The notes beneath the pieces are model-generated. The model was not told the DNA's origin and made no database searches. It was given only the letters and a program-made list of their open reading frames with translations. DNA of 64,000 bases, from positions 1,798,001 to 1,862,000 of the forward strand of contig CAKKNE010000006.1 in the NCBI GenBank assembly GCA_918797485.1, given 5' to 3'. Origin of the DNA: Pelagomonas calceolata (taxonomy: Eukaryota). Every line of letters starts with the position of its first letter. Position 1 is the first letter of the stretch. A program made the translations under genes and the position numbers. Of this stretch, positions 10,635 to 62,743 are shown one piece after another.

Positions 10635-12069
10635 TCAAAATCCGGCAAAAACTTTTTTTGCGGAGTCAAATTCGTCCTCAAGACATTCCCGGGGATGGTA
10701 CTCATCGAAGCGAGATGCATCCCCAATTGGGAGGATGAGCGGCTTCTGTGGAGGCCGGATGCGTTTTTGATTGACTGCCACCTATGTGAACACGCAAAGG
10801 GGGATGGTTGGCTGCCACCTATGTATGTATGCAAGGCACCGGTTCCGACAAAGTCGACATCCTGAAAAAATTCTGCGGCCTGGATACTCGCCGCATCAGT
10901 GAGTCGTTTTGGAAGATCAGCTTTCAGCAGAGAACGGACTAGGGCGCGCGGCGTGGGTCCCATGAAAGACGGGAATGAGATGCGTCCTTGGATGACCCGT
11001 AGATATATCGCATGATGCGAATCTGTCTTGTGATCTTTGCCTGCGAGGGAGCAGAGCCATTTATCAATATAGGTAGTAGATTATCCATACGGTGGCCAAG
11101 ACAAAAAGGCGTATGCCCCGACATGAGCTCGTACGCAACGCAGCCAAACGCCCACCAGTCGACAATGCGTGTGTAACCGCCCGTCTTTTTTCGCGATAGT
11201 TGCTCCGGTGATAGATATGCAGGTGTCCCGCAGTTTGTTCGCATTCGCCCCTCTGGCCCATCGGGCGGCGCACATGCAAAACCGAAGTCAACGAGGCGGC
11301 AATGACCCTCGGTATCCAACAGTACATTTTCTGGCTTGAGGTCTCGGTACACAAATCCGCCCGCGTGTACATGTGCTAGTGCTGCGAGTATCTCGACGAG
11401 GTAGAACTTGGCCACGGCTGCACTCAGGCACCTGTTACCTCGCAGTTTTGAGAAAAGCTCGCCGCCAGCCACGTACTCCAGGACGAAGTAAATCTTTTGC
11501 TTGTCCTGGAGCGTACCAAAGAGACCCACGACAAATGGGTGGCGCAATTGACCTAAGATCAGGCGCTCGTTCTGCACATGCCTTTCGTCATCGTGCTTGA
11601 CCACGTAGCCCTTCGAGATTGCCTTGATCGCCATGTACTTCCCGTCCTTCCTGAATCGTGCGAGCGAGACCTCACCCATCACGCCGCGGCCAATAACGCG
11701 CACGAGTTCGAACTTTTCAATGCCTCTATGCGACCGTGGTCCAAGGACACAGTGAGTGGCGATCCAGCCATTCGTGCCATCAGCACGGGCCTCGGCTCTA
11801 CGCGTCGCGAGAGCGCTTCCCGCCTGCCCGAACGCATGCGTGCTTTTGACTGTGTGCTTCGCCTTATTCCACTTCGTCCCACCAACTCCTCGCCGTGATG
11901 GGCCTTTTTTGTCACCACTTAGGCCCATCGATCCTACTCGTCGAGACATAATGACTGTGTCGGCATCTGTTTCACCCTGAAAAGTCCACGGCAAGGCGTG
12001 TTCGTCGACGGAGACATTGTACCCATCGTCGGGCGCCGGCTTTGGGTTCAGGCTCAGACCTCCGCCCAT
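10635..12069 (-). CDS. AGC-family (PKA/PRKX-like) Ser/Thr kinase; 2 introns (11041-11102, 10782-10849)
   Basis: IGRGVMG, AIK, YRDLKPEN, DFG, CGTPAYLSPE and DWWAFG; splicing restores an AGC tail ...IRPPQKPLILPIGDASRFDEY...KVFAGF*. Confidence 0.9.
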
Positions 12070-14203: not shown

Positions 14204-14228
14204 CTATTATTCCCGCGATTCCCGCGCC

Positions 14229-16850
14229 ATGAGGCGGACAGATCGGGAAGAAACTTTGCTTACCTACGCGACGGAAAAATCTATCGAAACTGGAGAAATC
14301 CCCTTAGAAGAGGTAATTTCAGCATCACCTTAGCATCAAGAAGAAACAATACAGGGATGGGAAAAGCTCAGGGAAAATGGCATTTGTGTTTTGGTCGACA
14401 TACTTCAGGGCAATGCATCCGACAGACGCCCGTTTGGTAATAAAGGCTATGTGTCTCTCTACACAATATCCTATCGAATGTGTTCAAATGCTGGATTGTA
14501 CGATCACTCAAAGGCATTGTATGACAGGACCAAAGATGAAATCGAGCACGTCTTGCAGCACTATGTAGTTCCCGAACTCAACAAAAATAAGTATGCAGAT
14601 GAAGGCAACGCCATACTCAACAAATTCTCACATCACTGGGAGAATCATAAAGTCTTTGTCAAGTGGATGCAACAGCTGTTTAGACATCTTGACAATGGCT
14701 ACATTGCAAATTCTTCAATCTCCACAATTACGTCGGTGGGCTTAAAACTTTTTTTTGATATCGTCTTTGTTCAATTTAAGGCGGAAGTTCGCGAATCTTT
14801 ACTGAATGCAATCGACACAGAGCGCGATGGAATAAATATCGACCAAGATCTACTGCGTTCTTGTGTTGAGGTTTTTCCCGTCATGGGCTTATCTTCGAAG
14901 TGCACTACTTTGAAGACAGTGCAGTCGGCATTGAACACCCAGCCTGATCTTAGTGTCTACGAATCTGATTTAGAAATTTCACTCTTAAAGAGGACCTCGG
15001 ACTACTATGCACGAAAAAGTAGGGTGTGGTTGGAGGACCAAACTACCCCTGAATACTTGACACGGGCAGAGATGGCACTCAAAGCAGAGCGAAACCGAGT
15101 TAAGCGATATCTCCACCCCTCCACTCAGAGTAAGCTACTCTGTGCCTGTGAACAGGAACTTCTACAAAAGTACAAGGGGCCGTTGATCAATCATGATCAA
15201 AGTGGGCTTAGATCTTTGCTAGCTGAGGACAGAAATGAAGACCTAAGGCGCATGTTTAATTTATTCCGACGTCTTGCTGATGGCCTTTCACCGATGGCAT
15301 TAATGACGAAGAAATTTGTACAAAGTGAAGGAAACAAATTGCTTCAGGAACGTCGGGATCTTATTCACTCTCTGAAATCGAAAGGCAGAAAATTAAGCTC
15401 AAATGACCCAGATTTGATCGATCAGCTCATGACGCTGCATAGTAAGATGAGTAGACTTGTCCTTGAGCTCTTCGACAACGAAGCTCAATTTCAGCGCGCA
15501 CTACGAGAAGCGTTCCAGGAAGTCATGAATGCAGATACAACTTCTGATGATTCAAATGTTGAGTTGCTGGTTGTGCACACTGACCGTATTTTAAGTGGGA
15601 AATTGAAATTGGATGAAGAGGAGGTGGAGAATAGATTGGAGCACTGTATTCAACTTTTTCAATTTGTATCAGACAAAGATTTATATGCTGAACTGTATCG
15701 AGAAAGGTTGGCAAAAAGGCTGCTATCAAAGAAATATACCTCTATTCATGCGGAAAAATCAATGATAGTAAAAATGAAAACACAACAAGGAGCTCCGTTC
15801 ACCACGAAGCTAGAGGGAATGGTGAATGATTTTACAGTAGGCTCGTACCAGCTGTCGTTATTTAATTCATTTTCTTTTTTGTCTTAGGAAAAGATATCGA
15901 TCAAACCTGGACCGCGCATTTAAACAAATTAAGAGCTGCAAACTTGCTTGCTAATAGAACGAGAATGGACTTTTCCGTTCAAGTGCTCACTCAAGGATTT
16001 TGGCCCTCACAAAAGCAACGCGACCTGCAATTATCCCATGAGATGAGAGATGCAAAATCTGCCTTTAACACGTGGTACACAGAACGCCACAGTCATCGTG
16101 TGCTATCGTGGGTGTATATTCTTGGAGATGTAGTTGTCAAAGGCAACTTTGGGGGGAGATCATATGACATGACGATGACTACATTTCAGGCCATGGCTCT
16201 GCTTGCCTTTGCTTGCAAGAAAGAAGCGGTTGCCTTTCCTGAGATTTGTGAGCATATGCAGATAGATGAACCGACTGGCAAAAGAGTTCTTCACTCCCTT
16301 GCGTGTGGCAAGTATAAATTGCTAGATAAAACAGGTCATCACAGAACTATAAATTGCAAGACAGACCTGTTTGAATCAAACGCTATATTTTATTCCAAGT
16401 TGAAGCGATTTAAAGTCCAGATGTCAATGCTGGATGGTGATTTTAAGAGAAAAGTCAACGTGGAGATCCAACAGCAGCGTGGGTTTGGTATTGATGCAAC
16501 GTAAGTGATCATCAGCAATACAATATATATTACCTTCTGTGGCTTTGGTTAGGATTGTGCGTATTTTAAAATCTCGCAAAAGGTAAGCTAGGTGGTGTGA
16601 AGAGCGTGATCCCCCCGTTTCCCTCAGGCTTGCCCATCAAGAACTCGTCGGCGAAGTGATCCACCAGATTCAGAACTTTGCGCCCGAGAGTAGGTTGATA
16701 CGACAGCGAGTAGAAGGTCTGATTGAGCGCGAGTGCTAAGATGCCCAGTGTCGAGCTACATGTATTGACCTTTGCAGATCACAAAAATGCACGTCTAGAT
16801 ATTTAAAGAGGGATGATGTGAATCCAAAATATTATATATATTTACCATGA
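14229..16850 (+). CDS. Cullin (CUL1-like); introns 14313-14354, 15841-15887, 16501-16552, 16583-16627, 16733-16798
   Basis: IPLEEGW, DKDLYAELYRERLAKRLL, FTTKLEGMVND, VLTQGFWP, neddylation motif IDATIVRILKSRK, terminal LIEREYLKRD...YIYLP*. Confidence 0.93.
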
Positions 16851-17834: not shown

Positions 17835-17965
17835 GCGACCCGGCGGGCCAGATTGTTGAACTAGACCTCGCTTAAAAATGACATGTATGCTTGCGACCTA
17901 CCGAAAATGCCACGGCGGGGTGCGACGCGCGTAGATGCCGGCCCCGATATCGCACTGAGGGCCTC

Positions 17966-18070
17966 GCAGCGTTTAATATCGTAGGGCAGCTCGGACTGTG
18001 GCTTCTCTGGGGTCGAATTTGCCCACAGCCCCAGAGCTCCAAATCGGTCTCTCGCGACGCAAGACGATCA
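17966..18070. repeat. Dispersed repeat, homologous to 8880-9025
   Basis: See partner; minus-strand translations share EAT..AALRY.TLR. Confidence 0.7.
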
Positions 18071-18649
18071 CCGTGGCACGCCGACTGTCGCGTTTAGACC
18101 ACGCCTCCCGAGCCGCTGACGCGTCTACGTACCTTTGCCACGGAATTTCGGGTTTACCCCGCAGGAGTGGTGGTCTGTACTCGACAGGCGCGCCGAGTTG
18201 ACCGTACTTGTAGTAGCTTGATCCGGTCGTCGCCGAGCAGCAACCGCGTGGGGGCTGCGTTTCGGCGCACTCCAGATCAAGCGCGGGCATCGATGGTAGG
18301 TCTCAGGGGAGCACCGCTTCAGCGGCTGCGGCTGCCTGAAGACCACGTATTACTTAGGCGGTCTTTAGGTGCCTTGCGCACTTCCTTGCGCCACATTTAG
18401 CGCCAGCGGTAGTGACCCCAGCCTGAGTATGACCCCAGTAAGATCCCCAGTACCTTGTCTAGCCGGCGAATAACGCACCTCCAGAGTCTAGCTCCAGAGG
18501 ACGCTTTCAAGTTGGGAGTGCAGCTGTTTAGGCCCAGCCAATGCACTCTTAAGACTACTAGTCTGGTGGTTGGGAGGTGGTTGGTTGGTTGGCGCGGGAG
18601 TTTAGTAGAGTAGAGGTATACGGATATGGGGGCATCCGGGACCAGGCGA

Positions 18650-19726: not shown

Positions 19727-20684
19727 CGACAAGTATAGATACAGCGTAGGCCCAAAAGATATGGACGCAGAGGGCCCGCTGCCTTTTTTGGGCCTTTTTT
19801 ATTTACGCTGTTGATCGCCAGCGCAGGTGTGAAAGAAAGATACTCGCTAGCTAAGGTTTAAAGAAAGGGGCCCGACGTCCGACGTATACTGCCCAGCACC
19901 TCGCTTCAAGTTCGAACCCCCCCCGGGCCCGGCCCCCCCGAAAAAAGACCGTGACTCGGCGGACATGGGGCCGGGCCGTGGGAAGTTACAGGAAGTTACA
20001 GGATACTGAGCAGAGACGAGCAGCTTCCAATCCGGACGACGCGATGCCGAAAACACGGCAGCCAACGCTGCCCATCTCGCCGAGAAAACGCCCCAAAACA
20101 AAAAAAAAGACACGCGATCGTTACGAGCCGATCGGGCCACCACAGCGTCCGGCGATCTGATACTAAGTGGCGCGGACGTCCCATGAGATTTCGGTCTATG
20201 CGTGGCCCGCGTTTCTCGCCGTTCGCGCATCGAGTGATTATCGTGCTGAATGACCACTGGCAGGACTTTTCTTAGGCCCGGGCTGCGGCTGCCCCGCGCA
20301 CGGATAGCTTGCTCAAAACCTTGCGGCCAAGCATGTCTCGTAGCCCAAGGACTAGGAGTAGGAGACTCTCTCGAGTCTCCATTCCGTAGCATAAGCACCC
20401 GGGGCCCTCAGGCTCCCGTCTCTCTCTCTTCCGCCGTCCGCCGGCGTCCTTGGTTTCCACGTGAGCTAAACAAAGAGATGAGCCGATGAATAAGGCTTGG
20501 ACTACACAAGGCAACTCGGCGAAGGGTCTCCTCTTTTTGTAGGGAATAGATAGAGCCGGTGGTATTTCCTGGCGACTTTATCTGGAGGAGATCTGCACTG
20601 ATCAGACGCCATGCCACTACATAAATTTTCAAACTCTCGAGTCTCCACAAGTAGAACGTTCACGGAGCCAAATCCCTGGATACT

Positions 20685-22282
20685 TCACGCGTAGTAGTCC
20701 AGAGCTCCTTTCTTTTTAGCAGCAACGACTGCAATGCCCTCCATGAAGTCTTCATGTTTCACTGTGTTGGCCTCGCGCCGTAATGCCAACATACCAGCCT
20801 GCAGTGACAAAATTATTTTACTTTCAAGCACGCTATGCCTTACCTCTACGCATATGGCCTTGCACTGCGCACCATTAAAGTCATCACAACAACGTGCAAG
20901 TTCCTCAAAATTGGTGTCATCTTTATCTACATTCATCTTGCGTGAATGTATTTGCATGATCCGTGCCCGTGCCATCTCTGTTGGATGCGGAAGTTCAATC
21001 TTGCCTGATTGCAGCGTTATGTCCATCCGTTTCATTTGATACGCGGGAATGACGATCTAGACGGCCAGAACGCAAGAGGGCAGGATCAAGCACGTCTGGG
21101 CGATTTGTTGCGGCGATCACCTGCATTCATCGAGTTATTTTGCCAAGGTTCTGTTTTTGACGCTGCGCCACCTTAATTTTCTCATCCGATGAAAACCCAT
21201 CGAGCTGACTGAGAAGTTCAAGCATCGTGCGTTGCACTTCGCGATCACCTGACTGTTCGCCACCAAAACGCTTTGTGCCAATGGCATCGAGCTCATCGAT
21301 GAAGACGATTGCCCCACTTTTGTTGCCTAAGAAGACGATATCATGGCGTAGTGATTCTTTACGAGGAACTTGCCAGATTTGATTTTTTCTTTGGCCAACT
21401 CAAATGCATCTCGCACTAATTTTGCTCCATCCCCAATAAACATCTGCACTAATTGAGGCCCCGCCAATTTAAGGAATATAGCATCTGTTTGCTTTGCACA
21501 AGCTCGCGCTAGAAGAGTTTTGCCTGTTCCCGGAGGCCCATGCAACAAAACTCCCTTTGGTGGCCGTACCCCAATTGAAGTGAACATTTCAGCGTGCGTC
21601 ATGGGTAGAACCACTGCCTCAATAAGTTCGTTAATTTGTTTATCACAGCCACCGATATCTGAATACTCTTCAGTGGGCTTTTCATCAACTTCCATGGCCT
21701 GCGTCGATGACACTCCACATGTGGTGTGTGAATCAAGTAAATACCTTCACCCGCGAGTCATACTCAGCAGGGAGCTTTTCAAGAATAAGATAAGAATCTT
21801 TATTGGTTCCGACGAGCTCCCCTGGAACCAATTCCTGGGTGTCAATGAGCCCAGGCACTGGCAGATAGATAGTCTGCCGAGTCGAGGTACGAATCACAAC
21901 AGATTTTCCTGACCTAGTGCTTACCTCATATATTACAGACCTATATCCACCAGTCTTACCTTTGAGCGTCTACATCTTGGGCCATGCCGACCTCTTCGTC
22001 CTCTTCACAACCCAAATCAAGCACTTCGATGATGTTACCAACAAGATAGGGAAGTTGTTTATTCAATTTTATCTTATCTTGATTCTCTTTGATGCGTTCT
22101 TTGTGAGACTCGGATTCGTGCTTAATGCGTTGTATCTCTGAGCGCATTATCCTAACCTAATGATTAGCATAGTGAGCGTCCATTGTTCACGCAATAAATA
22201 CATCATTTTCCACTAGCCGACTGCGCTGGCGAATCTCATCGAGTGACATCGACATGATCTCAGCATCCAGAGAGGCATCCAT
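20685..22282 (-). CDS. PSMC3: 26S proteasome AAA-ATPase RPT5; 7 short introns
   Basis: [69 protein letters not shown]. Confidence 0.96.
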
Positions 22283-22640
22283 CGGCCGGCTCTGCCAAGA
22301 CGTCTAATAGAATTACCCAGACGTCTATCCCGCTGGTAATACTAGGCTAGGAGCCAGCTAGCACAGTACCTTGCTTACTGTACTAGCCTTAGGCTCCCCT
22401 CGGAATTTCCGGCCAACCACAAAGCCAAATTGGCTGTGGTTTGCGCCGGCCCTCAGATTTATTTAGCCCGCCCTCCCTCCCTGTTTGAAGAAGGGGGCCC
22501 CGGTGACGTTTCCTACCTGTCCCCGGGATTGGTTGGCCCGATGGGCGGCAACTGAGCAAAGAATAAATTCCCAACTATTAGTCTGTTGCTATTTCACTAG
22601 CCACTAGGGAGACTAGGGTAAGCTGAATCACGTATTAGTA

Positions 22641-22696
22641 TACCTACGGTACCCACGGTACTGTACAATGTCATACTGACTTGTACCGTAGGTACT
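22641..22696. promoter_or_regulatory. GTAC/CTACG motif cluster in the RPT5/EGF divergent promoter
   Basis: tacctacggtacccacggtac...gtaccgtaggtac ends about 17 bp before ATG 22713. Confidence 0.55.
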
Positions 22697-22712
22697 GTCG
22701 TTGGAACAGCCG

Positions 22713-25065
22713 ATGATTTATGCCAGACAGCACATTCTCTGTCTGGTGGGTTTGCCGACACTGTTAGGGCAATGCCCAAATATGTGCAGCGGTCACGGCA
22801 GTTGTGGCCCAGAGAATGTATGTTCGTGCTTCGAAGGATTTGACTATGCTCCCGACTGTTCATTGCGTTTTTTTGCCGCGTGAAATCTTGCCTATTTCAC
22901 GACGGTGCATTAGGTACATGTTCGAAAGGTGCAGCTTGGGCAGACAAAGCATATGCTGTAGACCTTGCGCATTCTCCGAGTGAGTGTTCGAGTGCTGGTC
23001 TCTGCAATCGTGACACTGGGAAGTGCGAGTGCTTCGACGGATACACTGGACTTGCCTGTCAGAGATGCAAATTTCAGTGTCTGAAACACAAGTAGTTGTG
23101 CATCATGAGATGATCAGCTTAGCTACGTGCCCAAATGATTGCAATGCCAATGGTATGTGCTTGACATTGAGCCGCCTGGGCCAATTGTATGGTATTGATC
23201 ACCAACATCCCAGCACTGGTGGAGATGGAACCGGTCCTTCTTATGCAAATTGGGATAAGGATTCAGTAACTAGTTGCTTCTGCGACCCTGGCTTCAGTGG
23301 GCCCGACTGTTCGCGAAGTTCGTCTCCCGAGTCGCATTTCCTTTTTTTTGTATTTACTTCCTGAACTGCACGCACATCCATAGTCATGTGTGCCAAGGCT
23401 GATGACCCACTTACTATCAACCAAAACTACCGTGCCCTTAGAATCGGAGTGTTTTCCGCTGATGGCAGCAGCCTTCAGGGCACAGTGATCTTCCAATTTC
23501 TTGGGTACACCACTTCTCATTCGGCTTCTCATGTCTCAGCGGTAACATGCGAGGGGGCTTGGGAGGCTCTTGAAAATGTTGAGGATGTGGACTGTCAGTC
23601 CGAGAACTTCGGTGCTGGCTCTTTTTACAATGTTACATTTAAGCAATGGCCAACTATGCCCATGGAAAACAACTATTTCAGTCATAAAGGCAACCCTGCA
23701 CTCTCAAACTTTACTTGTGATGTGAGTGGTGCCTTTTCTGCTAGTGGTTCGCAAGTGTTATGCAACATTTCAGATCTCGTAAGCGACGATATAACTGAAT
23801 ACGAGTACTGTGGTCGGCGTGGTCAGTGCGATTTTACGTCTGGAACATGCTACTGCATTGATGGGTACGAGGGCTCCACTTGCACTGATTCAACTTATGC
23901 AGAATCAACCTCAAATTCATTACCTGGTGTGAATATTCACGCAACAGGAACCGACTACATTGGAGATATCTTCAAGCTTACCGCAGACAAATCGTCTTCA
24001 TCTGACTTCACCTTCATGAAAATAGTCGCAAATGACGAGGATCTTTTGAGCATCCGTGGTGATGGGCTGTTGTCAATCGCACAACTTGATGTTACAACCT
24101 ATGGAACAACAATTTCAGAGGGCGGACTTACTGTTCTGACTGGCGGCGCCAGCATAAAAGATGGAGGTGTGGATATTTCGAGCATGGCTTCGGGTGAACC
24201 TGTTCTTCATGTCATTGGTAGCTCCGAAGTTTTTGCAGACTCGCTGCTTCAGGTAGATTCAATACGGAATGAAGATGCAAGCTATTGGTTTGCTCGCTTC
24301 AATACTGCCTACAAGCAAGCCGATGGAAGCCACAATATCTTTTCCATCCGCGGTGATGGCTACACCAAAATCGCAGGTGAACTACATGTCGACAATGTTA
24401 CTTCAGTCTACAGCCTCGAACTCACAAAGGGTGGATTAACAGTTTATCAGGGGGGGCTACGTCTTTATGAAGATGGCGTGGTCGTGTATGATGGTGGTGC
24501 TGATATCCGTAGCAATAATGTGACTGTGCTTCGAGCTTACCACAATTATGCCGCCGGTGATAAAGACAATGGTACCGTGCTTTCGATCGAGTCCACCGCA
24601 GGGCTATCCAGCAACATAGATTTGATAAAAGCAGGGATGGATGTGGACAATATACATAAGCCAAAAACTATTTTCCGAGTCAACGGTCTCCCCAGGACGT
24701 ATATTGACCGAGGTGGTCTTAGTGTGATGGGTGGAATCACGGTAGCTAGCGCGGGACTGAATGTCTCTGCTGGTGGAGTCTTCATCTTGGCTGGAGGCGT
24801 TGACATCCAGGGAGGCAATCTTACGGTCAAGAATGATGCCAATATAATCGTGGGAAATAAGCAAGTCATTGGTGCCCGGCAAGCCGCCGTTGACGACGTC
24901 AGTGCAGCTAATGATCCTGGTGATGGCACGCTTGCGGCGGCGAGTTCAGATGTCGCGACATTGGCAGCGCAATCTGAAAAGCTACGGGACCTAGTCGATG
25001 AAATTAGGACCCAAATGAATGATCTTCTAGGAAAGCTGCGAACACATGGTCTCATAGCCAGCTAA
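22713..25065 (+). CDS. Secreted EGF/tenascin-like (Sig1/mastigoneme-type) protein with Gly-rich beta repeats; introns 22867-22913, 23067-23122, 23318-23383
   Basis: Signal-like N-terminus, CPNMCSGHGSC, ECSSAGLCNRDTGKCECFDGYTGLACQR, CPNDC, DCS..CAKADDP; GGLxVxxGG repeats in the C-terminal half. Confidence 0.85.
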
Positions 25066-27010: not shown

Positions 27011-27080
27011 CCACGTCTCTCCCAGCGGGTCCGCGCCCGGCGCCCCCACGTCTCTCCCAGCGGGTCCGCGCCCGGCGCCC
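27011..27080. repeat. 35-bp perfect tandem duplication
   Basis: ccacgtctctcccagcgggtccgcgcccggcgccc x2. Confidence 0.9.
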
Positions 27081-28707: not shown

Positions 28708-28735
28708 CAAGTGGTGCTAATAACTCCGCTAAATC

Positions 28736-30558
28736 ATGACGAATGTGCTTTCAACAAGGCAACATAATTTTGGCGATTCCAGTTGCTTTTCGGTCAGCTT
28801 CGTCTCTGCAACTAGGAAGTGTTTTAAATATACAAGATCCCAGACTCCTCCACAGAAGCAGGTTAGTTCCGCCTCCGGACGAAATGTTGGCTGCTCTGCT
28901 GTATTTGTGCAGACGCAGATAGCGTTCGATGGGGCAACAAAGCCCAAGTTCCAATCAGATCTGATCGCACATCTAGCCTCCCAGATGATTCAGGAGCTCT
29001 CCCAACCGCAAGATGCATTTGTTGGCTTCGTTGGGTCGCAACCAAAACAGGACCAGGATATTTGTTGCAAGTACACGCTTACGTGCAGACGGTCAGGCGA
29101 TCTGCAGTGTACTGGGCTGTCCTGGAATGCAACCGGCGCTATGCTATGTGCTGCGTTTGGCCGATCGGACCTCACTGGATGGTGCAACAAGTCTGGAATC
29201 CTCTGTTGTTGGTCGCTGTTTCGTCCGGAATTTAATCCCGAGTGCCCAACCTGCTCCGTAGAGCACTCTTCTTGCTTTACAACTATTGCTTGCCATCCGT
29301 CACAACCGTCGTTGATGGCCGCTGGGTCTTTTGATGGGGAAGTACTTATCTATGACCTAGCTGATAGTTGTGACGTCCTCAAAGCATGCTCAAACATAAG
29401 CGACTATTCGCATCGAGAACCAGTAAGTTCTCTTCAATGGAATCGGAATAGAGGTGCATTCACTGCCAGTATAGATGCTTATCAGCTTGTTTCACTCTCC
29501 AGTGATGGTAAGATCCTATGGTGGTCATTAGCGACAATAAAACACGCAACGGCCGAGATTAGCGGCCATCTGCCATACCCGGTATATCTGCCTAAGGCGC
29601 GATGAAAATTGAGTTAAGAGTTTCTTAGGTACGTGGCGTGACTTTGGCATGCAACCCTGAGTTAACATTGCTCACCAATATGGCAGCTTCATCACCGATA
29701 GTGGGGGGCACTTCTATGGCACTAGCTGAATCTTGCGTCATGATAGGCTCTGAAGGGGGGAAAATTTTGCGCTGCCATCCGCGTAAAAAGAATATAAAGA
29801 AACTCTTTGCTGGCAGCGATAGTAATATACATTGGGACAAAAGCGCGATTGACTTTTTTGATAATTTGCCACCTTGCATCACATCAAAACTCATCAAGCA
29901 TGTTGAGCTTTGGGCAAATAGTGTAAGTAGGCAAGTGGTTTCAGCAAAAGACATCTTTGTCTCTAAGCCCCCACTCCGGTATGTGTTCCCAGCTCCAACT
30001 GGCGTGACTGAATATGAGGGGCATGTTGGTTCAATGTCCTAGATTTTTATCAACGCACCATTCTTGTTCATCTAGGTTGGTCCGATCACAATGATTTCAA
30101 TGTCTCCATTTCACCGCCGCGTATTTTTGTCTGTTGGCGTCGATGGCTACGCAAAACTGTGGTCGACGATGCAGCGACGTGCTCTAATGACCATGCGAGA
30201 TACAAGCTGTATTCACCTTGCTGATGGGCTGTATGCATCAGGTTGGTCCAAGGCACGTCCTCTTGTCTTTGCGGTTGCGGGTGATGGAGGTGTGGTGCGT
30301 ATTCACGACCTGGGCAACAGGCGGCCAATGCTCCCAGCTGTCGAACTTAAAGCACCGATGCCAGCATCCGCCAATGATACGGACAGGCGAATCCTTGCTC
30401 TTCAGTTCAATCATAAGCAGAGAAATTTCTTAGCAACTGGCAATGCAGCTGGTCACGTCCATGTGTGGCGACTATCATGGGGACTTTCCAATCAAAGTTC
30501 TCACGAGCATGAAAAATTACAATCATGCATTGAGCATATGGAGGAAAAGGGCGCATGA
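28736..30558 (+). CDS. WDR34: WD40 dynein-2 intermediate chain; introns 29582-29628, 30025-30075
   Basis: LSWNATGAMLCAAFGRSDLTGWC, IACHPSQPSLMAAGSFDGEV, SHREPVSSLQW, SPFHRRVFLS, WSKARPLVFA, VHVWRLSWGL. Confidence 0.85.
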
Positions 30559-30969: not shown

Positions 30970-33900
30970 ATGTGCTTTTCTCTAGAACGGGTTTCTCACG
31001 GGTCAGCGTCGCCCGAGCAGCTTGCACCCATGTCGTGGAGTATGGTTGCAGACGGGGATGCGCACTGTGAAATACGCTGGGAAATCGCTCACTCTCTTTT
31101 TGCGTCCGCCGACAACATCAGCGAGCTCCGAATCTCCGACATTCATAGCTGGCGTGACACGGTTTTTGAAGTTGTTGCGTATGTTATTGATCATTTCTAT
31201 TATACTGGTCGAAAGGTACTACACAGGTATGTGGCCATTGGGAAAATTGAATCAGTAACAGCCCTTGATGTAATTAGACAAGCGTCGTTAATAATTGGTC
31301 AATCCACTGAACTAGCAGAAGCGATAGTTGACGCAATTTGGCTACATGATGTACCTAATTGGTTCCATCTTGGTTTGAGATTCTTTCCCCCGTTTAGGTA
31401 CAAATCAGCGCAACTAAACTCAGGCCAGCACACTGTCATCTTGCGGCACTGGTGGAGGCTTTGCAAGCAGCTGGTGTTGTATCGTGTTCTTCAGCGCAGA
31501 GAAATTGAACTCGTCCCAATGAGGCAAGCCCAAGCTTGATCCAGGCTGACTAATTTTAAGAAGCATCTAGATGAAGAACTTTTGACTTCAGCAGGCCTAA
31601 CAAATTCTATTACGTTTTCAAAGCGCTTGAAAAAGTTGAATACGGACCAGGTATATCGACAACATAAGTATAACCTTCTACACGAAGAAAGTGAAGGCTA
31701 CTCCAAGGAACTGCAGCGTCACAACCAATTCAATCTGACGTCCCCCTTGCGTTCATCACCAATCAGATGCCATCACAGGTAACAGCGCTGCTTGTATCAG
31801 GGTCTATTACACGGCTTATTCTATATTCTACGCTTATTTTGTCATATTTGATTAGGTTGTCTCGGCTACAAATACAAGCGGCTCCAGCATATCTGCCAAA
31901 GTCACTTCAGGCTTTAATTGGGGGTTTTGACCTTGATCCAAATCGTGTAATGGACATGGTGCTTAGCTCGCTTCAGCACAGCTGTATGGCTTCTAGCACT
32001 ACATCGCCTACAATAAATGCGCTCCTCAAGTTACTGGAGCAGGTCAAGCTAGGTGCATCCCTGCCCCAAATTCTGGGCTTCAAGTTTCAAAACTGCAGAG
32101 CTAAGATGTTAACATCGCTCTGCCGACTCACTGCAACATTGCTCAGCGCTGGGGCCATAGCTGTAGACGCACTGCTGCCCCATTTAGCGCCATCAATGGA
32201 GAAGCTTGCCGAAACCACAAAAAGACACGCTAAAAAGATCGAGGACGCGTCTCGTCTTGCCGGTACTGTTTCTCTATCGCACTCCGCGGAGCAGGACGCG
32301 AGTCAAACCACAGCAGTATCGCGATGCCGCTATCCGGCAGAAGGCCTCTCCTTACCAATTGTTGGGATTATTGAGGCATTATTGTGGGACCGACGTTGGC
32401 TTCTTGTGCGACCACTTCTAAGTTGCCTGGAGGACACAGGTGCGCTGCCTGTCTGCGGTCAATCTCGATTGGCACTCTGTTCGATGCTAAAATTTGCTAT
32501 CTCTCCTCTGTATTGCAAGCTTACGCCAAATTATCTACAGTTTGCAACTCGTTGGCAACCGTCAGGAATTCCCTTAGTACACGTGGGCTCACAGCACCGA
32601 TGTCGCACTTTTGATGATATTGCATCGGTTCATCGTCTTTTTCAAGTGCTAGAGCCACTGTGTTGTCATCTCCACGTTGGTATAGCCTCTGATGCGTCAT
32701 TGGTGACCAAGCTTGCACGCATCATCAAATATCTGCTACGACCGCGGGATGCTCGAGGTGCGCATGAAGCAAAACGCTTGCTTGGATATGTCATACTGCC
32801 GGCTATGTCAATACTTTCGGTCAATCCTGGCTGCGTATGTGAGATTTGGGCTGCGACAAAGCAACTCCCTTGCTGTGAACGGCATTCGCTCTACTCAACC
32901 TGGCGCGGTCGCAGCCTTGAAAGAGAATCCGTGGGTACCAAGCACTTTGAAGTCGCAGAGGCAGAGTGTAAAGCTGGTTATCATGCTCGACAATCATTAA
33001 AGCGAGTGGCAAATGACAAAAAAAACTCCAAGCACGTTGGAAGGGCATTGGCAAAAGTAGCCCACTCAAATCCGCTGGTTGTCTTTCGTGTCATTCTCTC
33101 TCAAGTTGAATCTTACGGCAACATGATTCAGCCCATCGTTGAGTCGCTCGGTTTTGTGTCCCCCCTTGCATTGGATGTTCTTTCTTACATGCTATCGTCT
33201 CACCTTGCCGACACGTCACGTCATAAACTACAGAATGATGGCATAAATATTGCTCATTGGTTTCAGCACCTTTCTCATTTCACTGGTGTCTACTATCGCG
33301 CATTTCCCCAAACTGAGCTCCAGGCTCTCATTGAATTTCTCATGCTGCGTTTGGAGGACGGAGATTCTTTGTACCTTCTTGTTTTCAATGAGCTTCTCGC
33401 TCGAATGGGTGGTTGTGAGGTCTTAGAGGATCTATCTGATGCCCAAATTGGCGGTTTGGCAGGCGGCGAAACACTCCGCCGTGAAATGCTTGCTTTTAGT
33501 AAGGCTTCTAAGCGCGCCGTTTCAAAGCTTCAGGAAGCATTATGCACGCCCAGCACTGCCATTCCAATACTTGCACTTGTTGCCCAGCGCCACTTCGGCG
33601 TCAATAAAGTCTGTCTCTGCAGATCATGTGAATTCTTGCAGGCAGCGCGGGTACAGTCTCTTCAAAGGGAAGGTAAATCATGTAAAGCTGCTTGGGCAAC
33701 TCTTTGATCGATGTCAGATGGTCCTGGTTCAGCTCGTAGATTTCCTTTCGCGTTCTACAGCGCACAGCACCGTCACAGGCACAGGTAAGAAATGTCCGTA
33801 CTTTGAGCTGCTTCCTGATCTCTGTAAAATGTCCGTGCCGTACACTGTGTCGATGATTTTCTACTTCACACACGACATATACCTTCCCACCTCGTTTAGG

Positions 33901-35193
33901 CGTTGCACATTGAACCACAGATTGCGCTCCACGCGGCTAGACCACTAATAGCAGAAGCAGCTGGCGCTCACCGCAAAGAACCAAGAGCTAAAATTCCAAT
34001 TTCACCCGACTCAGGGAGCTCTCTATGCAAATGGGAGCCAGGTGGTAAAGCTTTGCGCTCATCACTACCTGCACGGGATTGTGGTGCATTGAGCAGCGAA
34101 CTATACCTTGTTTTCTGGTCTCTATCGCTATATGACATTACAGTGCCCACGCGAGAATATGATGCGCAAATAGCCTTAATCCGCTCTAAGATCAATGTGG
34201 CACATCGTGAGTTTCTAGAGCCAGACAGACGGAAAAAAGAGATGGCACGCTGCCTCAACACCATAAACTCGCTTGTGGCCGAGCTGGAATTCCAGAAGCA
34301 TCATTACCAGCAGATCATGACTGATCTTGAGGCACAGCGTAATAGTCTACTTGGTACTATCGTCCTCACCTGTGTGAAAATACGTCCATAGATTATATGC
34401 TGCTTTTAAACTAGTTATGTTGACTACTGAGGTGCCATGGTAGGTGGAGGATCAACGCCGCTCGATTTCAGAAGCACTACTTGAGAATTGCATCATGCCA
34501 CGTGTTACGATCACACCAGAAGATGCACTTTTCTGTGCAATTTTTTTCAAGCAACTTCATTCTCTCGAGACAACCAACTTCAGTAGCCTCCAATATTATG
34601 ATCGGGTAGTCAAAGATGTTTTTCCTGTAATCTATTGTGCGACAGATCAGGAAGCTCGTTGCCTTGGAATTTTTCTTCGTGCAACTTTTGAACCCCTCAC
34701 GCATTGGCGCTTCGATAGACGTCGCTATGATATGGAAGCAGGATCAAAACTTGGATTTTCTGTTGCCATTGGTTCTGCTTCTAGGTGTACATATGAACAA
34801 TATTGCACTGTGTTTACCAAGTGGCATGATAAGATAACTAAAGTTGCCCTTCACTCGCTTAGCCACTACAAGGATCATGGCCGTGCCTGTCTCCTTGTGC
34901 TAATAAAACTAATTGGCGTCTATCCAATCTACAAGCACGTATCTACCCAGCTTTTGGGTCTTTTAGAGGCTATTCAAGTTCAAGAGGACATGAAGGATGT
35001 CCAGGCGATGGCCAAGCGTTACTGCACACTTCTTAAGAAGTCGGAGGATACACTGGTGGAAGAATCTCTCCTACAACGTGATATTCTTGGCTCTAAAGCT
35101 CAAGTTCCAGCCCCTGGCACCAAACGCCAGGCTAGTGCTGCCAATAAGCAACGGCGAAGTCCAAAAGTTAGCTTGGCACGAGACCAAGAATAA
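30970..35193 (+). CDS. THOC2: THO complex subunit 2, multi-intron (start uncertain, 30970 or 31030)
   Basis: YRQHKYNLLHEESEGYSK, LIGGFDLDPNRV, KVAHSNPLVVFRVILSQVESYGNMI, YLVFWSLSLYDITVP, LENCIMPR. Confidence 0.92.
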
Positions 35194-51923: not shown

Positions 51924-54462
51924 ATGAACTGGCACGTCCTTGGTGATGTGAGTTATCAGAAACGGAATCTGCACACGGTAGTCGACCTCCACTAGCAATG
52001 CAAGTTACTTTTTTTTTCAGATGGCCTGGAATATTGAACTCTCGAACAAGGTGGTGACTGGCGCACCTGCTGGGGGGGCATTGGCCTTGCTGCATCGCCA
52101 CCAGGTATGACACTTTTTTATTTTAAACTCAAATTGATTTCAGATGGGTCGCAAGTGCCTTGCTGAGAACAAGTTACTACTCTACACGAATGCAGGCGAG
52201 CCTTTGGCGACAATTACTTGGAACGAAAGTTGTCTGGTGGGCATGGGCTGGGTGGAAGAAGAACTGTTGCTTCTTTGTTTTGAAGATGGCGTGGTATTCA
52301 TCTATGATGTGTTGGGCAACTTTGTGCGATCATTTCTGTTGCTCACATCAAAGCTTCCTTTAGAGGAGACCATTATTCAAGTCTACATCTGGGGGTCTGG
52401 TCTTGTCGCCTTGACAAGTGCCATGAATCTTCAAGTATGTGATACTGTTCATGCTTTCTCGCCAGCTGTTTATACTATGCCAACGGGGCTGTCTGAGGAG
52501 CGATTAGCTATTACCATGGTCGTTTTACAACCATGTTTTTCTTCCTCTGGTCTTGTTGAAGTTTTTCTTGGTACAGCTGATAGCTCGATTCTAGCTGTCG
52601 ACGTGAACGGCCCCCATGATCAGCTCATTCACGGTCGTCTCCCTGCTCCTGTGACTTCAATGGCAATAGCTCCAAATGGTCGTTTTCTAGCGTGTTTTAC
52701 TCTGGGATTATTAACAGTTGTATCTACATCTTTTACGACAAAAGTGCTGGAGTTTGACACTTTAGCGGATTCAAGACTCCTTGACATGCAGTGGTGTGGG
52801 GAAGATTCCGTCCTGCTCAGTTGGGAAGATTGTTTATTGATGGTTGGACCATATGGACATTGGCTTAAATTCAAATACAGGGCCCCCTTGTTTCTGATAC
52901 CCGAAATAGACTGTTGCCGCATTATCACTGATCGAAGTTGTGAGTTACTTCAAAGGGTGCCTGGGCCGATTGCGCTGATTCGCCAATTGAGTGCAGATAA
53001 TCCCTCAGCCATGCTGTATAACACTCTGGAAATGTGCAAAGTTGTAGATGTAAAGGTGGATCATGTGCGCTCAAAGGACCCACCAGGCCAAGCATGTTTA
53101 TCAGCCGAAATCTTGCATGCGATTCAAGCAAACATTGCAGCTGCAGCTGTTGAACTCACAACAGTCCAGCAGAAGTGCTACCTCCGCGCCGCTGCCTGTG
53201 GCAAGGCATTTATAAAAGTATCCTCGGCTTACACAGAAAATTTTGTTGCTGCGGCTCGCAAGCTTAGGGTGCTCAACCATTTGCGTCGACGTATTCCTGC
53301 TTTGTGCTTAACCACGACCCAGTATGATCGACTAGCAACGAGCTCCTTGATGGACCGTCTTCTGGCTAGAAATTATCACTCCTTAGCACTACGCGTCAGT
53401 GAATACCTTGGAGTCCAAAGAGACAGGGTAATCATTCACTGGGCATGCGTAAAATTACGAAGTTCTGTAGCACACAAAAGCCTGGACGGACAGATGAGAC
53501 CATCAATGAATAACGCTTGTTTGAAGATTCCTTGCTATATATCGCAAATCCCCATCGTAACAACTGCCGATGTCCTTGGGTGTCGTCAATTCGCAATGGC
53601 TTTGTTGCAGTCTGAGTGTTCTATGATAGACCAAGTCAAATTATTACTTGCTATGCACGAGCATGAATTAGCATTGAAAAAAGCTGCTCAGGGCAAGGAG
53701 GTTGACGCTATCTATCTTGCTCTTATATGTACTGAGCGCATGTGTCCCTGGATGACGAGGAACACGAGTCCATCGTCAAACTGCAGTTCACTTTTTGATA
53801 CAATTGCTCGTCACGAAGACCTATCCAACCTGCTGCGTGTGTATTATCAGTCACGCATTCCAACAGCAAGCAGCAGAAACTTACACAACTTTCTAGTTCA
53901 CCACAACGCTGGTCGTCCTTGCTTCAAACAAGCTGGAAACTTGGCACTAAGAATCAGCTATCTGCAAACACGGCGCGCAGATAGATTTAAAAAGCTGCGT
54001 GAAGTAATTTCATTGTATGCGCAGGGGCGCGAATCGCAATTTCAGCGTAGGGCAACTGAGGATCAAGTAGCTTTGCTTGAGTTTCAATCTGATCTAGAAA
54101 AGAAGTATGGAACTGGGTGTTTTTTCGACATGTCCCTTAGTGAGACAGTATACAACTTGATTGTGCTTTGCTCAACTCAACAAAAGCGTGCAGTTGATTT
54201 GCTTTCAGACACTAATAGATTACGAAGGAGGTTTAAAATACCAGATCGCCGTTTTTCATACTTGAAGTTAACAGCGCTTGCTGCTTCTGGACAATGGCAC
54301 GCACTTCGTGTTTTTTCCGCTGAAAAATCTGCCATTGGCTACGCGCCATTTGTGCGGGTCTGCATTGAGTATGGACAGCCGGCCTCTGAGATAGAGTACT
54401 ACATGAACCGAATAACTATAGATAACGAACGCCATTCTCTTCGTGCCGAGCTTAAGTCTTAA
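51924..54462 (+). CDS. VPS16: Vacuolar protein sorting 16 (HOPS/CORVET); introns 51978-52020, 52105-52143
   Basis: Spliced N-terminus MNWHVLGDVSYQKRNLHT-MAWNIEL..GAPAGGALALL; MQWCGEDSV, LRVLNHLR, IHWACVK, FKIPDRRF, SAIGYAPFV. Confidence 0.92.
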
Positions 54463-59128: not shown

Positions 59129-62100
59129 ATGCCGGAAATCCCCGATTTGCAGCACTACCTTGGAGATCTGGAGAGTAAAGACAAGGCTTCGCGAATTCGT
59201 ACGCTCAGTCTACTGAAAGACAAGCTGACTTTAGCACCGGGATCATCGGATGTTGGCGATCACTCTATGAATTATAATCTGATAGACGCTCTGGCTAATA
59301 GGCTCGTCAATGATCCTGCAGAACGATGCAGAGAGCTTTCGCTTACCATCATAGCCGAGTGTCTCCGTGACATGGACCCCGCAAAAATCGTGAGGTCAGC
59401 TCGCTGCATAGTCCCGGCAGCTGCTGAGAGATTCGGAAGCCAGCCGTTCAGAGAACCAGTAGAAGAGCTTAGGCTGAAGTGCGCACGCATGGTTAGTTTC
59501 TTCGCTTTGATTGCCTATTTCTAGGCTCATTGAGACATGCACTAAAATTTTGCATCAAGCTGCCTCCGAGCTTAGTTATGAACGTAGCCACCCGATCACG
59601 GACATTTTGGCATTTTCCCTTGTTTCCGCTCTGACAGACAGATTCCCGGAGGGTAAACGAGCCGCTGCGACCGCGATCAGCAACTTGTGCCGCATTGCCC
59701 CCTGGAGCATTAATCTTCATTTTGTAGCCTTGATGATTGAACTTAGTACAAACCTGTCACATCAACACGTGGGTCATGCAAATGAGTTGTTTTGAAAAAG
59801 GCCTGCCTGGCTTTAGGCAAAGACGCGTCTTCTAACTCTCGATGCCATTGTGGATGCCTACTTGACTGTGTCGCAGCATTTGCTCCACAGCAAGACTCTT
59901 ACTGCTCTTTTTAGGTCACATGTGTTTCGACCATTTGCAATGCGCTCCCACATGTGTTTCGCCAGGTGCTTGGCTTTTTTTTTAAAATTACATTGCTGAT
60001 GTTCGCATTGGCAGATTGTCCTGCCGAAACTCGGGCGTATTTGCATGGATCGATCCAAAAAAGCTCAGGCCCGTGTAGAGTTAGAATGGACCCTTGTTTA
60101 CTTTATGCCAATGCTCAGGTGCGAGTGTGCTTTGCTCGCTCCCTGGGTGTCTGGCTAGTGCGAGGACTTGACTGCATTACAGTGGCGGAAGAAGCGATTG
60201 GGAAATCCCCAGGGGCGCTAGTAAACGCCGGTGTATCCACAAAACTCGCCCCTGCCTATTAGCAATACTCGCATAGCATGAATTTGCCTCTGACTTGCTC
60301 GCTTTTCTCTTCATGCTCCTCTCAGACGAATCTCGGGAAGTTGCAGCAAGGGCAGTTTCTGAGTTGAATGTCCCTCCTGTGCGGGGATTGCTACCTTGTT
60401 CTCCATTGCGATATTTCTTAGGCAGTAGGCATACATTGGCAACTAGCCACCTCCAAAAGTATATCAAAGTGGTGCGTTGCGGAACTTCCCCTGCCGTGTG
60501 TTCCCTCTGTTCTGCCCCGTGATTTTGCCTGCAATGCTGCATATTTGGTATCCAGTGCTGCTACAACGCTTGTTACACTCCACTTTCAACCTATCTTGAA
60601 TATCCAGCTCGCCTGGTTGAGTTGTTGGATGCCGCCGATGCGTCTGAAACAGTGTGCATGTCACATGTTCCACTTGGGCATTGTACCAAAACCCAATTTA
60701 CAGGGGCTCATAATCTTCACGCTCTCGCATCATTGATTATAACGTCAGGGGCTGCTGTTACCAGTTCTGTGCTTTTCTATGATAGCAGGCACCAGAATAA
60801 ATTGTAGGTCAATAGTTCATTTCAAGTTGGGAAGCTGATTCAAACCTATGGTGAGTTGTCTACCCGGGTATATGATATGTTAGCGCTTCAGCTCTAGGCA
60901 ACTGGATTAGTGATAATGATGAAGGCGTCCAGGGCGGCTCTCGGGCAGCCATTCGGGCATTGGGTGCGGTTCTGATTGATCATTCTCCAGCACTCCGTAT
61001 ACTGCTTGACTTTGGAACGCCCCCCTTGGCAGGTGCAGACGATTAAATATCTTACCCCGTGCTGACTTCGAACCCATAGCCGTCAGAAATGATAGCTTGG
61101 TCAATGTAATCTTGGAACATTTAAGTGAGATGATGACGCTTATTACTGATAAACTCTTTTTCCAACAGGGAGGGTGAGTGCTCGGCGGATAGCCTCTTCT
61201 GCAACAACAATGGTCACCTTATTCTGCCACTTGGCAGAGGTCTCTGCTGAACAGCGAGCATCATGCCCCATGCCGTTCAACGCTGATGCTGCAGATATTT
61301 GCCTTTGCTACGCCGTGCGGAACCTCCTCCGTCAGTACATCTACAAATGGGGTTTGTTTCACCATGCTGTCGCAGGTTTACGGCTTGAGTTAGATGAGCT
61401 CTCACTTGCAAAACTCATGCGTAGTCTGCTCCTCCTACCATCATTCACTAATGCGTTCTTACCAACTTACACGCAAGCAAGCCCAAGTTCCAACTACATG
61501 GTGAACCAGAGCCTAGTCATCCTCCTGGCGCATTTTGGTCAATCTTCTCGAGCTGATTTTGTTCAGATTTCTTTTGATGCTGTTATTGGCTTGCTTCCAA
61601 AACCAAATCCATGCTATGAGATCCACACTGTGTCATGGCTCCTTTTAAGTGCGCTGGTACATATTTGTCCAGGAGCTGTCGCCTCTGTCTTTGACACCGT
61701 CCTAGCTCCAATCCTTTTGGTGCATGTGCACCCATGCTCTAATCCAAATCCAGAAGCGCGAATCAAGGCATTAAGGTAAGGCCCCAAGACTATTGCATAA
61801 AGCCTCAAGAATACTTTTAGCCTCCTACACACTTTGATGTGCGCATTGGATGCGCAAGGGAAGTTTAGCGAATTTACCATCGCAACGTTGATCGAAAGTA
61901 TGTTTCAAAAAGAACACAACACACCCGTGCTTTTAACTCGTGCCTTTGAAATAGGTGCTGTGCTTCCTAATCTAGTTTGGTATACTGGTCGCACCGCAAA
62001 CTCAACGCGCAACCTGCACAGTCACCTAGGGTGAAAGCCAAGATATATTTTCTAAATTTAGGTAAAGCTGCACTTGCTGTGCTACACGGAGTGCTCCATA

Positions 62101-62743
62101 GTGCCCTCACCCCCTCAACGGGACTATCAATGGAGCAAACCGGGATTCAACCCATTTTGAGATTACTGCCTGTTCTTGGAACAAGCTTGGATGAGTACGA
62201 CACTTCATCGCGAGAGATTTCCTTGAGGTGCGTTTACATCTTACTTAGCAGATTTCAGCTTCAATCTGAACTTGCCTTCCCTCGGCCCTGCATCTGGACA
62301 GTTGCCTTACCACCTTGCTTAATTGCCTCCCACCAACCAGTCTTCAGCTTAACAGCGTTTTGGAATTATATCCTGCTATCGTGAAACGCCTCGATGATTC
62401 GCTAGATGACATTAGATTGGAAGCCTGCGCCACATTTTCTGCGTATGTAAAGTGTATATCTCCCGTTATTGCTCTTATTCTCTTATTCTGCAGATTTGCC
62501 AGGGTGACACCGCCAAACGCGCTAACAGAGACAATCCTTGAATACTGTATTGAACACTTTCTAGTTCATCTCGATGATGCAAATGTAAATGTTCAGAGCG
62601 CAGTCTTCCAGGCTCTTCTGACTATTGGAAGCGTGGGGCCCTTGGCCAAAGTCATGCTCTCGAGGAAAGTCAGTGAAATTAGTTTCTCCCATCGCGATCC
62701 GGCCCTCGCTATTCGACTTCTGAATGTGCTTAATCTAAGCTAA
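59129..62743 (+). CDS. DNAAF5: Dynein axonemal assembly factor 5 (HEATR2), many short introns (not all resolved)
   Basis: DPAERCRELS, EPVEELRLKL, LSHQH-AKTR, PNLVWYTGRTA, IVKRLDDSLDDIR, LVHLDDANVNVQSAV. Confidence 0.8.

What the first reader, a model, noticed from the sequence alone, without database searches (positions are those of the whole stretch)
20685..23383. Very short introns with almost no donor consensus
Seen, with junctions inferred from protein conservation: about 30 introns of roughly 39-71 nt. Many donors lack GTRAG: C|GTCATT (21053), C|GTTTTT (22867), A|GTTCGT (23318), T|GTCTTG (11102), T|GTCGGA (10849), A|GTGCTA (16733), T|GTTGGT (30025), A|GTGCGC (59479). GC donors are G|GCTCGT (15841), G|GCAAGT (21373) and T|GCAAAT (23067). 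Established: GC donors normally need a strong surrounding U1 match, which most of these lack. Inference: 5' sites may be chosen by distance from the 3' YAG (a ruler) or by a relaxed or variant U1/U6.
Basis: partly seen in the sequence, partly recalled or inferred. Interest (0 to 1): 0.7.

Follow-up and report, generated by a model that had tools for sequence, protein, structure and literature searches.

The report
Algal introns with displaced donor signal
In the marine alga Pelagomonas, tiny introns are cut at start sites carrying about half the usual sequence signal, and the weakest sites have a second motif 9-14 bases inside the intron that likely tells the splicing machinery where to cut.

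Summary
Observation confirmed. The window is Pelagomonas calceolata DNA, probably a low-GC centromeric region. I mapped 48 introns of 39-82 nt: 7 GTRAG, 8 GC, 1 probable GA donor. Donor information is 3.9 bits, against 6.7-9.5 in 60 of 61 surveyed species and 3.58 in the related pelagophyte Aureococcus. Weak pelagophyte donors are therefore known but unexplained. The ruler idea fails for the weakest donors, which sit in the longer introns (rho -0.59). New here: introns of 55 nt or more have no donor information beyond the dinucleotide, but share C(A/C)GTGT at +9..+14 (leave-one-gene-out p=2e-5). That profile alone picks the true donor in 11 of 17, against 4 for U1 match and 0 for the ruler. 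Best reading: a second donor signal, likely read by extended pairing with a variant U6; a protein reader is nearly as likely. U6 could not be examined. Small sample: 9 genes.

The parts
20685..22282 (-). RPT5 (26S proteasome ATPase) gene, 7 introns of 45-51 nt
   Evidence: P0021 maps exactly with one GY-AG solution; Pfam AAA and proteasomal OB domains
22157..22201 (-). RPT5 intron 1, 45 nt, GT donor, -1 T
21914..21959 (-). RPT5 intron 2, 46 nt, GTRAG donor
21699..21744 (-). RPT5 intron 3, 46 nt; read through in P0006
21327..21373 (-). RPT5 intron 4, 47 nt, GC donor with good U1 match (7 of 9)
   Evidence: P0021, P0007, P0008 use it; NCBI protein P0014 uses another GT-AG pair and is 2 aa short
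21121..21171 (-). RPT5 intron 5, 51 nt, weak donor; retained in P0006-P0009
21005..21053 (-).
20799..20843 (-). RPT5 intron 7, 45 nt, GTRAG donor
22713..25065 (+). Gene for a Cys-rich, EGF-like protein (label from the cysteine pattern by eye; last exon has no Pfam hit), 3 introns
   Evidence: spliced model open for 728 codons; stop at codon 57 if intron 22867 is kept
22867..22913 (+). Intron 47 nt, donor match 3 of 9; spliced in 1 of 4 runs, retained in the contigs of 3
23067..23122 (+). Long-class intron, 56 nt, GC donor
   Evidence: RNA joint in 4 of 4 runs
23075..23080 (+). CNGTGY element at +9 of intron 23067
23318..23383 (+). Long-class intron, 66 nt, GT at +14
   Evidence: RNA joint in 4 of 4 runs
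10782..10849 (-). Kinase intron, 68 nt, donor 3 of 9, element at +9 (10836-10841)
11041..11102 (-). Kinase intron, 62 nt, donor 2 of 9, GT at +13
14313..16798 (+). Cullin gene, 5 introns: 14313-14354, 15841-15887 (GC), 16501-16552, 16583-16627, 16733-16798 (element at +14, 16746-16751)
29582..30075 (+). WD40-like gene introns 29582-29628 and 30025-30075
31179..34443 (+). THOC2 gene, 8 introns mapped with a 92%-identical protein; 6 are long-class; elements at 33845-33850 (+11) and 34370-34375 (+9)
   Evidence: no RNA laid here
31708..31778 (+). Probable GA-AG intron, 71 nt, before an 11-nt microexon (31779-31789)
   Evidence: only placement that restores the peptide of P0121 and P0150; not RNA-checked
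51978..52143 (+). Vps16 5' introns 51978-52020 (43 nt) and 52105-52143 (39 nt)
   Evidence: open spliced frame; contig lengths; least certain pair
59129..62743 (+). DNAAF5-like HEAT gene, 18 introns; elements at 59866, 60071, 60229, 60377, 60650, 60767
   Evidence: 15 RNA joints in 4 of 4 runs, 3 protein-mapped; model open, 890 aa

Best explanation
These are short GY-AG introns of two kinds: those under about 55 nt have a weak but U1-like donor, while longer ones have a featureless donor plus a C(A/C)GTGT motif at +9..+14 that likely acts as a second donor signal, predicted to be read by extended base pairing with a variant U6 snRNA. Shown: the junctions, the low donor information, the length-strength anticorrelation and the motif. 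Inferred: removal by the major spliceosome through intron definition, loose U1 loading near the site, then U6 nucleotides just 5' of the ACAGAGA box (33-38, human numbering) pairing with +9..+14 and fixing the cut at the GY 8 nt upstream. Predicted: Pelagomonas U6 reads ACAC-N-G (or GCAC-N-G) there.
For: Motif found by an unbiased scan on 35 introns: GTG starting at +10..+14 in 15 of 35 vs 1.9 expected, family-wise p=0.0014, the floor of the shuffles; no 3'-anchored k-mer was significant. Held-out 13 introns: GT at +10..+14 in 7 vs 2.7 (p=0.006); a +7..+16 profile trained on the 35 scores them above rotation (p=0.003). Leave-one-gene-out: long class p=2e-5, short class p=0.39. This holds on the 28 RNA joints alone (p=3e-4) and at cut-offs of 53-60 nt. 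Long class: C9 12, A/C10 13, G11 11, T12 10, G13 11, T14 10 of 17; the profile alone picks the real donor among GY candidates in 11 of 17, against U1 4, ruler 0, chance 2.7. GT at +10..+14 is present in 17 of 20 weak vs 13 of 28 stronger donors (p=0.008). Fixed register: weak-donor score 52 at shift 0, 18 and 21 at shifts of one base. In human STAT3, pairing of intron +9..+14 with U6 38-33 supports a weak donor and is rescued by suppressor U6 (PMC11162779 passages); +9C and +12U fit those same U6 bases. The four long DNAAF5 introns at 59856-60642 were never read through in 22 cluster proteins, while ten other introns were (a hint only, not quantitative).
Against: The complement of human-type U6 is not enriched (80 vs 74 expected), so the model needs two changes in a conserved RNA. 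CNGTGY starts at +9 in 6 introns but at +8, +11 or +14 in 5 others, which suits a protein as well. The sharp register partly reflects GT alternation. Only 9 of 17 long introns carry CNGTGY near the donor. Held-out GTG alone is not significant (2 of 13, p=0.07), nor is the held-out length-strength rank correlation (rho -0.49, p=0.09). The weak/strong contrast is significant at thresholds 4 and 5 but not 2 and 3. Adding the profile to the U1 score lowered overall donor picking (24-25 vs 26.4 of 48). Cut-offs were chosen after seeing the data; 26 of 48 introns come from two genes.
Confidence: 0.38

Rival explanations
1. The motif is a downstream intronic enhancer bound by a GU-binding protein attached to U1 snRNP, which would hold U1 on a donor it barely pairs with (by analogy with Nam8/TIA-1, recalled). 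The extra 10 nt of length would make room for that protein.
For: Same motif statistics as the best explanation. The motif starts just after the +8 end of the U1 duplex and its start varies from +8 to +14. U1 snRNP proteins are annotated. It needs no change in U6.
Against: Strong preference for one register. No TIA-1, CUG-BP or CELF label in the annotation file, but that file was cut when stored, so this is inconclusive.
Confidence: 0.3
2. A permissive spliceosome accepts almost any GY in a 40-80 nt window, errors are removed by decay, and the motif is a small-sample or compositional effect.
For: Retention is common in contigs and cluster proteins. A probable antisense transcript is also spliced. 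Only 48 introns from 9 genes.
Against: Rotation nulls keep each intron's dinucleotides and still give p<=1e-5; held-out and leave-one-gene-out tests pass. No shifted donor was seen among the 28 joints shown (8 further joints were not shown), and the departures in 22 DNAAF5 proteins were nearly all whole-intron read-through, although Logan contigs drop rare forms.
Confidence: 0.13
3. Long-class introns are decayed introner transposons: an 8-nt target duplication starting with GY gave the donor, and the element's end begins at +9, so the motif is a relic and need not act.
For: A. anophagefferens-type introners recruit the donor from an 8-nt duplication (10.1101/2020.10.14.339549 passages). Pelagophyte introner families of 62-85 nt exist (PMC9860276 supplement rows). 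The motif starts exactly after 8 nt. Weak donors are followed by AG|GY in 17 of 20. CAGTG resembles a hAT terminus (recalled).
Against: No intron-intron similarity. No residual duplication (long class 30 vs 25.9, p=0.20) and no inverted ends. Three of the 6 introns with the motif at +9 lack GY at the next exon start. AG|GY is equally common in long (11 of 17) and short (21 of 31) introns. A motif that outlasts all other traces is more likely selected. Origin as introners and present function are compatible.
Confidence: 0.12
4. The reader's ruler, or a variant U1, selects the donors.
For: 23 of 35 lengths fall in 45-52 nt; the nearest-to-47 rule recovers 21 of 31 short introns.
Against: It recovers 0 of 17 long introns, each of which skips a GY nearer the mode. 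No alternative -3..+6 consensus exists in the long class (-0.13 bits). Aureococcus U1 is canonical.
Confidence: 0.05

Closest known systems
Aureococcus anophagefferens introns (PMC3033335; passages and Additional file 4 read)
   Same: Pelagophyte; donor information 3.58 bits vs 3.9 here; many GC donors; called an enigma, U1 canonical.
   Different: That survey scored only -3..+6, linked GC donors to high genomic GC and pooled all introns. Here the introns are 43% GC, not repeated, fall in two classes and show a +9..+14 signal.
P. calceolata low-GC region introns (PMC9481584 and its preprint; passages and supplement text read, figures not visible) and the pelagophyte pangenome preprint 10.1101/2024.10.30.620910 (passages)
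   Same: Low-GC regions have more and shorter introns (2.2 per gene, mean 119 bp); about 14% GC-AG in the species.
   Different: In the text I saw, donors are described only for introners (GT and GC). GC donors are 8 of 48 here in low-GC DNA, so high GC does not explain them.
Extended U6:5' splice site pairing in human STAT3 and MINX (PMC11162779, passages)
   Same: Same window, +9 to +14/15, supporting a weak donor.
   Different: One human site, with canonical U6 and complement CGUUCC. Here a class-wide motif that does not match human-type U6.
Pelagophyte introner elements (second-hand through; the 2016 Nature paper was not held)
   Same: Donor co-opted from arbitrary exon GY; 8-nt spacing before a constant sequence.
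   Different: No copies, duplications or inverted ends detected here; length about 50 rather than about 200 nt.
Entamoeba and Mastigamoeba co-evolved U1 (10.1101/2022.06.08.495308, passages)
   Same: Precedent for an snRNA changing along with donor sequence.
   Different: There the donor is a strict atypical hexamer and U1 changed; here the hexamer is nearly empty and the signal lies downstream.

Membership tests
U2-type spliceosomal introns | GY...AG ends | tested here: met
   47 of 48 GY, 48 of 48 YAG; in the 20 protein- or frame-mapped introns these ends were assumed in the mapping
U2-type spliceosomal introns | Removed precisely from RNA | tested here: met
   28 RNA-contig joints; spliced frames open. 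The runs are labelled RNA by guess, but the joints support it
U2-type spliceosomal introns | Donor complementary to U1 5' end | tested here: inconclusive
   Met on average and in the short class (5.4 of 9); not in the long class (3.35 of 9, -0.13 bits)
U2-type spliceosomal introns | Branch-point motif | tested here: not met
   YTRAY 15 vs 15.5 expected, CTRAY 4 vs 7.0; a degenerate branch point is not excluded
U2-type spliceosomal introns | Lariat intermediate; U1, U2, U6 dependence | not testable with these tools
   No raw reads or genome; U1 proteins seen only as annotation rows
U12-type introns | RTATCC donor | tested here: not met
   0 of 48
Introner elements | Repeated family of similar introns | tested here: not met
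   No intron-intron or window hits; rest of the genome not searchable
Introner elements | Target-site duplication | tested here: not met
   +3..+8 match 87 vs 75 (p=0.054) for all, p=0.20 for long; junction repeat p=0.087
Introner elements | Terminal inverted repeats | tested here: not met
   16 offsets tested, best p=0.048 uncorrected
Structure-defined nonconventional introns (euglenid type) | Stable fold joining non-canonical ends | tested here: not met
   Fold z mean 0.05 (long) and 0.41 (short); ends canonical
Length-defined (ruler) introns | Narrow length that fixes the donor | tested here: not met
   39-82 nt; ruler recovers 21 of 48
Extended U6:5' splice site pairing | Signal in the +9..+14 window | tested here: met
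Extended U6:5' splice site pairing | Complementary to human-type U6 33-38 | tested here: not met
   80 vs 74 expected
Extended U6:5' splice site pairing | Complementary to the organism's own U6 | not testable with these tools
   No genome, no snRNA in the window, none in the search listing

The most novel reading that the evidence does not exclude
Pelagophytes have a bipartite 5' splice site: for a whole class of introns the U1-read hexamer is dispensable and a CMGUGU element at +9..+14, paired with a co-evolved U6, sets the cut. This would explain the record-low donor information of Aureococcus and how introners that borrow any exonic GY are spliced accurately.
Probability: 0.3. Interest if true: 0.85.

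Novelty: new variant of a known kind. Interest (0 to 1): 0.64.

Why it matters
Aureococcus has the lowest donor information of 61 surveyed species, called an enigma in PMC3033335. PMC11347168 leaves open whether its non-canonical introns are annotation error or spliceosome flexibility. RNA joints here show that such donors are real in a pelagophyte and occur in low-GC DNA. The missing information appears to sit outside the window usually scored. That turns the question into a one-step test (read U6; build genome-wide logos to +20). It would also improve gene models for an abundant ocean alga: one public RPT5 protein is mis-spliced at a GC donor.

Tried and rejected
No whole genome is held, so U1 and U6 could not be searched; Rfam found no snRNA in the window (4 sub-threshold miRNA hits). 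RPT5 had no RNA cover in any of the 4 runs; this says nothing about expression. The metagenome scan with RPT5 returned the best 80 of 482 relatives, nearly all intronless and none close at DNA level, so intron conservation between strains was not tested. Three loci show one intron near residue 73-79, not shared with this gene. The viral-contig scan found nothing. One joint (17482-17587, AG..GG with 11 letters between) was dropped as not an intron; 8 joints were not shown. The script's own placement 31718-31785 in THOC2 broke the alignment and was replaced by hand with 31708-31778. Three spurious introns from P0135 were dropped. 51979 was one base off and was corrected. Rejected after test: hairpins shortening long introns, target duplications and inverted ends, branch-point motif, any 3'-anchored k-mer, exon-intron compensation of -1G with +3A, +4A or +5G (all p>0.15), complement of human-type U6. 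Donor shift by exon loss is unlikely because sister proteins align without gaps at the long introns. A downstream U1 site is unlikely because the internal GT contexts read GTGT, not GTRAG. Earlier-findings look-ups returned nothing. Nine literature searches (listings only, except papers cited as read) showed no report of a +9..+14 element in pelagophytes. The 2016 introner paper was not held and the P. calceolata introner logo is a picture; either may bear on novelty. bioRxiv supplements were closed. PMC2483917, PMC11282704 and PMC12130899 (passages) had nothing on pelagophyte donors.
Full report
Source and setting. A piece of the gene under the finding matches 26S proteasome subunit RPT5 at 99-100% to proteins labelled Pelagomonas calceolata. 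The window is about 50% GC. P. calceolata is 63% GC overall, with one 52%-GC, gene-rich, putative centromeric region per chromosome where introns are more numerous and shorter (PMC9481584: passages; supplement text). That the window lies in such a region is my inference. No whole genome was held.

Checking the observation. RNA-run contigs from four studies were laid on 10451-30400 and 44101-64000, 39,850 of 64,000 bases. Of 29 joints shown, 28 have exactly one GY..AG placement; one was not an intron, and 8 more were not displayed. RPT5 had no cover, so its 7 introns come from the exact, unique mapping of P0021. Thirteen further introns were mapped later and served as a held-out set: 3 in the DNAAF5-like gene, 8 in THOC2 with a 92%-identical protein, 2 in Vps16 by reading frame. 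The 48 introns are 39-82 nt and 43% GC, with 39 GT, 8 GC and 1 probable GA donor, 7 GTRAG, 17 with -1G, 48 YAG and 37 with G as next exon base. Donor information at -3..+6 is 3.9 bits (3.2-4.7). A survey using the same positions gives 6.73-9.5 bits for 60 species and 3.58 for Aureococcus anophagefferens (PMC3033335 Additional file 4, read whole); backgrounds differ slightly between the two calculations. The weakness is real and has a pelagophyte precedent. Retention also occurs: 22867 is unspliced in the contigs of 3 of 4 runs, and RPT5 intron 5 is read through in P0006-P0009. It affects strong donors too.

Testing the ruler. Each acceptor has on average 4.1 unused GY at 39-71 nt. Among candidates at 39-82 nt, the GY nearest 47 nt is right in 21 of 48, the best U1 match in 26.4, chance 8.5. 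U1 match falls with length: rho -0.57 on the first 35, -0.59 on 48, -0.54 on RNA joints alone. In the held-out set the rank correlation alone is not significant (p=0.09), though long vs short is (one-sided p=0.014). Thus the featureless donors are the ones off the modal length, which a ruler does not predict.

What marks the weak donors. A scan of all 2-4-mers and windows found GTG starting at +10..+14 in 15 of 35 introns against 1.9 expected (family-wise p=0.0014) and nothing anchored on the 3' end. Nulls that rotate each intron keep the result (p<=1e-5), and GT at +10..+14 recurs in 7 of 13 held-out introns against 2.7 (p=0.006); GTG alone does not reach significance there (2 of 13). Splitting at 55 nt, a cut chosen after seeing the data, the 31 short introns have U1-like donors (1.53 bits outside the dinucleotide) and no downstream profile (p=0.39). 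The 17 long ones, from five genes, have empty donors (-0.13 bits) and the consensus C9 (A/C)10 G11 T12 G13 T14 in 10-13 of 17 per position. Leave-one-gene-out profiles give p=2e-5 for the long class and pick the true donor in 11 of 17, against 4 for U1 match, 0 for the ruler and 2.7 by chance. The result holds for cut-offs of 53-60 nt, without the three least certain introns, and on RNA joints alone. Against it: only 9 of 17 long introns carry CNGTGY near the donor, and a single combined score did not beat U1 match over all 48.

Mechanism. Shown: two intron classes and a position-specific motif associated with weak donors. Inferred: the motif substitutes for U1 pairing. Its window coincides with the extended U6:5' splice site helix, where pairing of +9..+14 with U6 38-33 was shown by suppressor U6 to support a weak human donor (PMC11162779 passages). 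+9C and +12U fit those bases, but G11 and G13 do not, and the human-type complement is not enriched. The model therefore predicts a variant U6 reading ACAC-N-G. I could not see the U6. A GU-binding protein next to the U1 duplex explains the data almost as well and tolerates the starts at +8, +11 and +14. An introner relic is attractive because Aureococcus-type elements take their donor from an 8-nt duplication and short pelagophyte families exist. But no copies, duplications or inverted ends remain, and 3 of 6 best motif carriers lack the expected GY at the next exon. A variant U1 is unlikely.

Comparison and novelty. These work like U2-type introns; ends and removal are met, a branch-point motif was not found, and lariats were not testable. 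They fail the tests for U12-type, introner, structure-defined and length-defined introns. Weak and GC donors in pelagophytes are in print and are attributed to high GC or left open between annotation error and flexibility. Nine searches showed no report of the two classes or the +9..+14 motif. The 2016 introner paper and the P. calceolata introner logo could not be seen. The scan's earlier notes held nothing.

Verdict. New variant of a known kind, interest 0.64, because a documented splicing enigma becomes testable by reading one RNA gene and drawing genome-wide logos. The sample is one region and nine genes.

Noticed in passing
window 31708-31855: Probable GA-AG intron (71 nt), an 11-nt microexon and a GC-AG intron (66 nt) in THOC2; supported by proteins P0121 and P0150 only.
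   Followed up: partly
window 21317-21373 (-): The NCBI-labelled protein P0014 uses a GT-AG pair shifted by 4 and 10 nt instead of the GC donor and lacks two residues, probably an annotation error.
   Followed up: yes
window 48741-48790 (-): One run has an undisplayed joint after 48739 with a dip of about 50 nt; the minus strand reads as a GT-AG intron, suggesting a spliced antisense RNA over the 47207-50203 gene. Inferred from piece ends and depth.
   Followed up: partly
window, mostly between genes: Short words are very frequent: CCCGGGCC 31, CACTGGCA 27, GACTCGGA 26, ACCGTGAC 23 times against about 2 expected; palindromic GTAC/CTAC-rich arrays lie just upstream of several genes (e.g. 14129-14190, 22644, 28683, 37820-37901, 41563, 59005). 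Possibly promoter or centromeric elements.
   Followed up: partly
window 10782-10849 (-): The intron holds an internal 13-nt copy of its own 3' junction; the inner AG at 31 nt is skipped.
   Followed up: no
window 42481-46611: Long open frame encoding the spliceosomal helicase Aquarius; several long genes here have no introns while DNAAF5 has 18.
   Followed up: no
all 48 acceptors: The next exon starts with GY in 32 of 48 against 12% background, and in 17 of 20 weak-donor introns.
   Followed up: partly
window 17380-17600, 18090-18125, 25600-25760, 58590-58640: Loose ends and high depth in RNA contigs point to repeats transcribed from elsewhere in the genome.
   Followed up: no
window 1-300 and 51200-51600: Tandem-like repeats seen by eye.
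   Followed up: no
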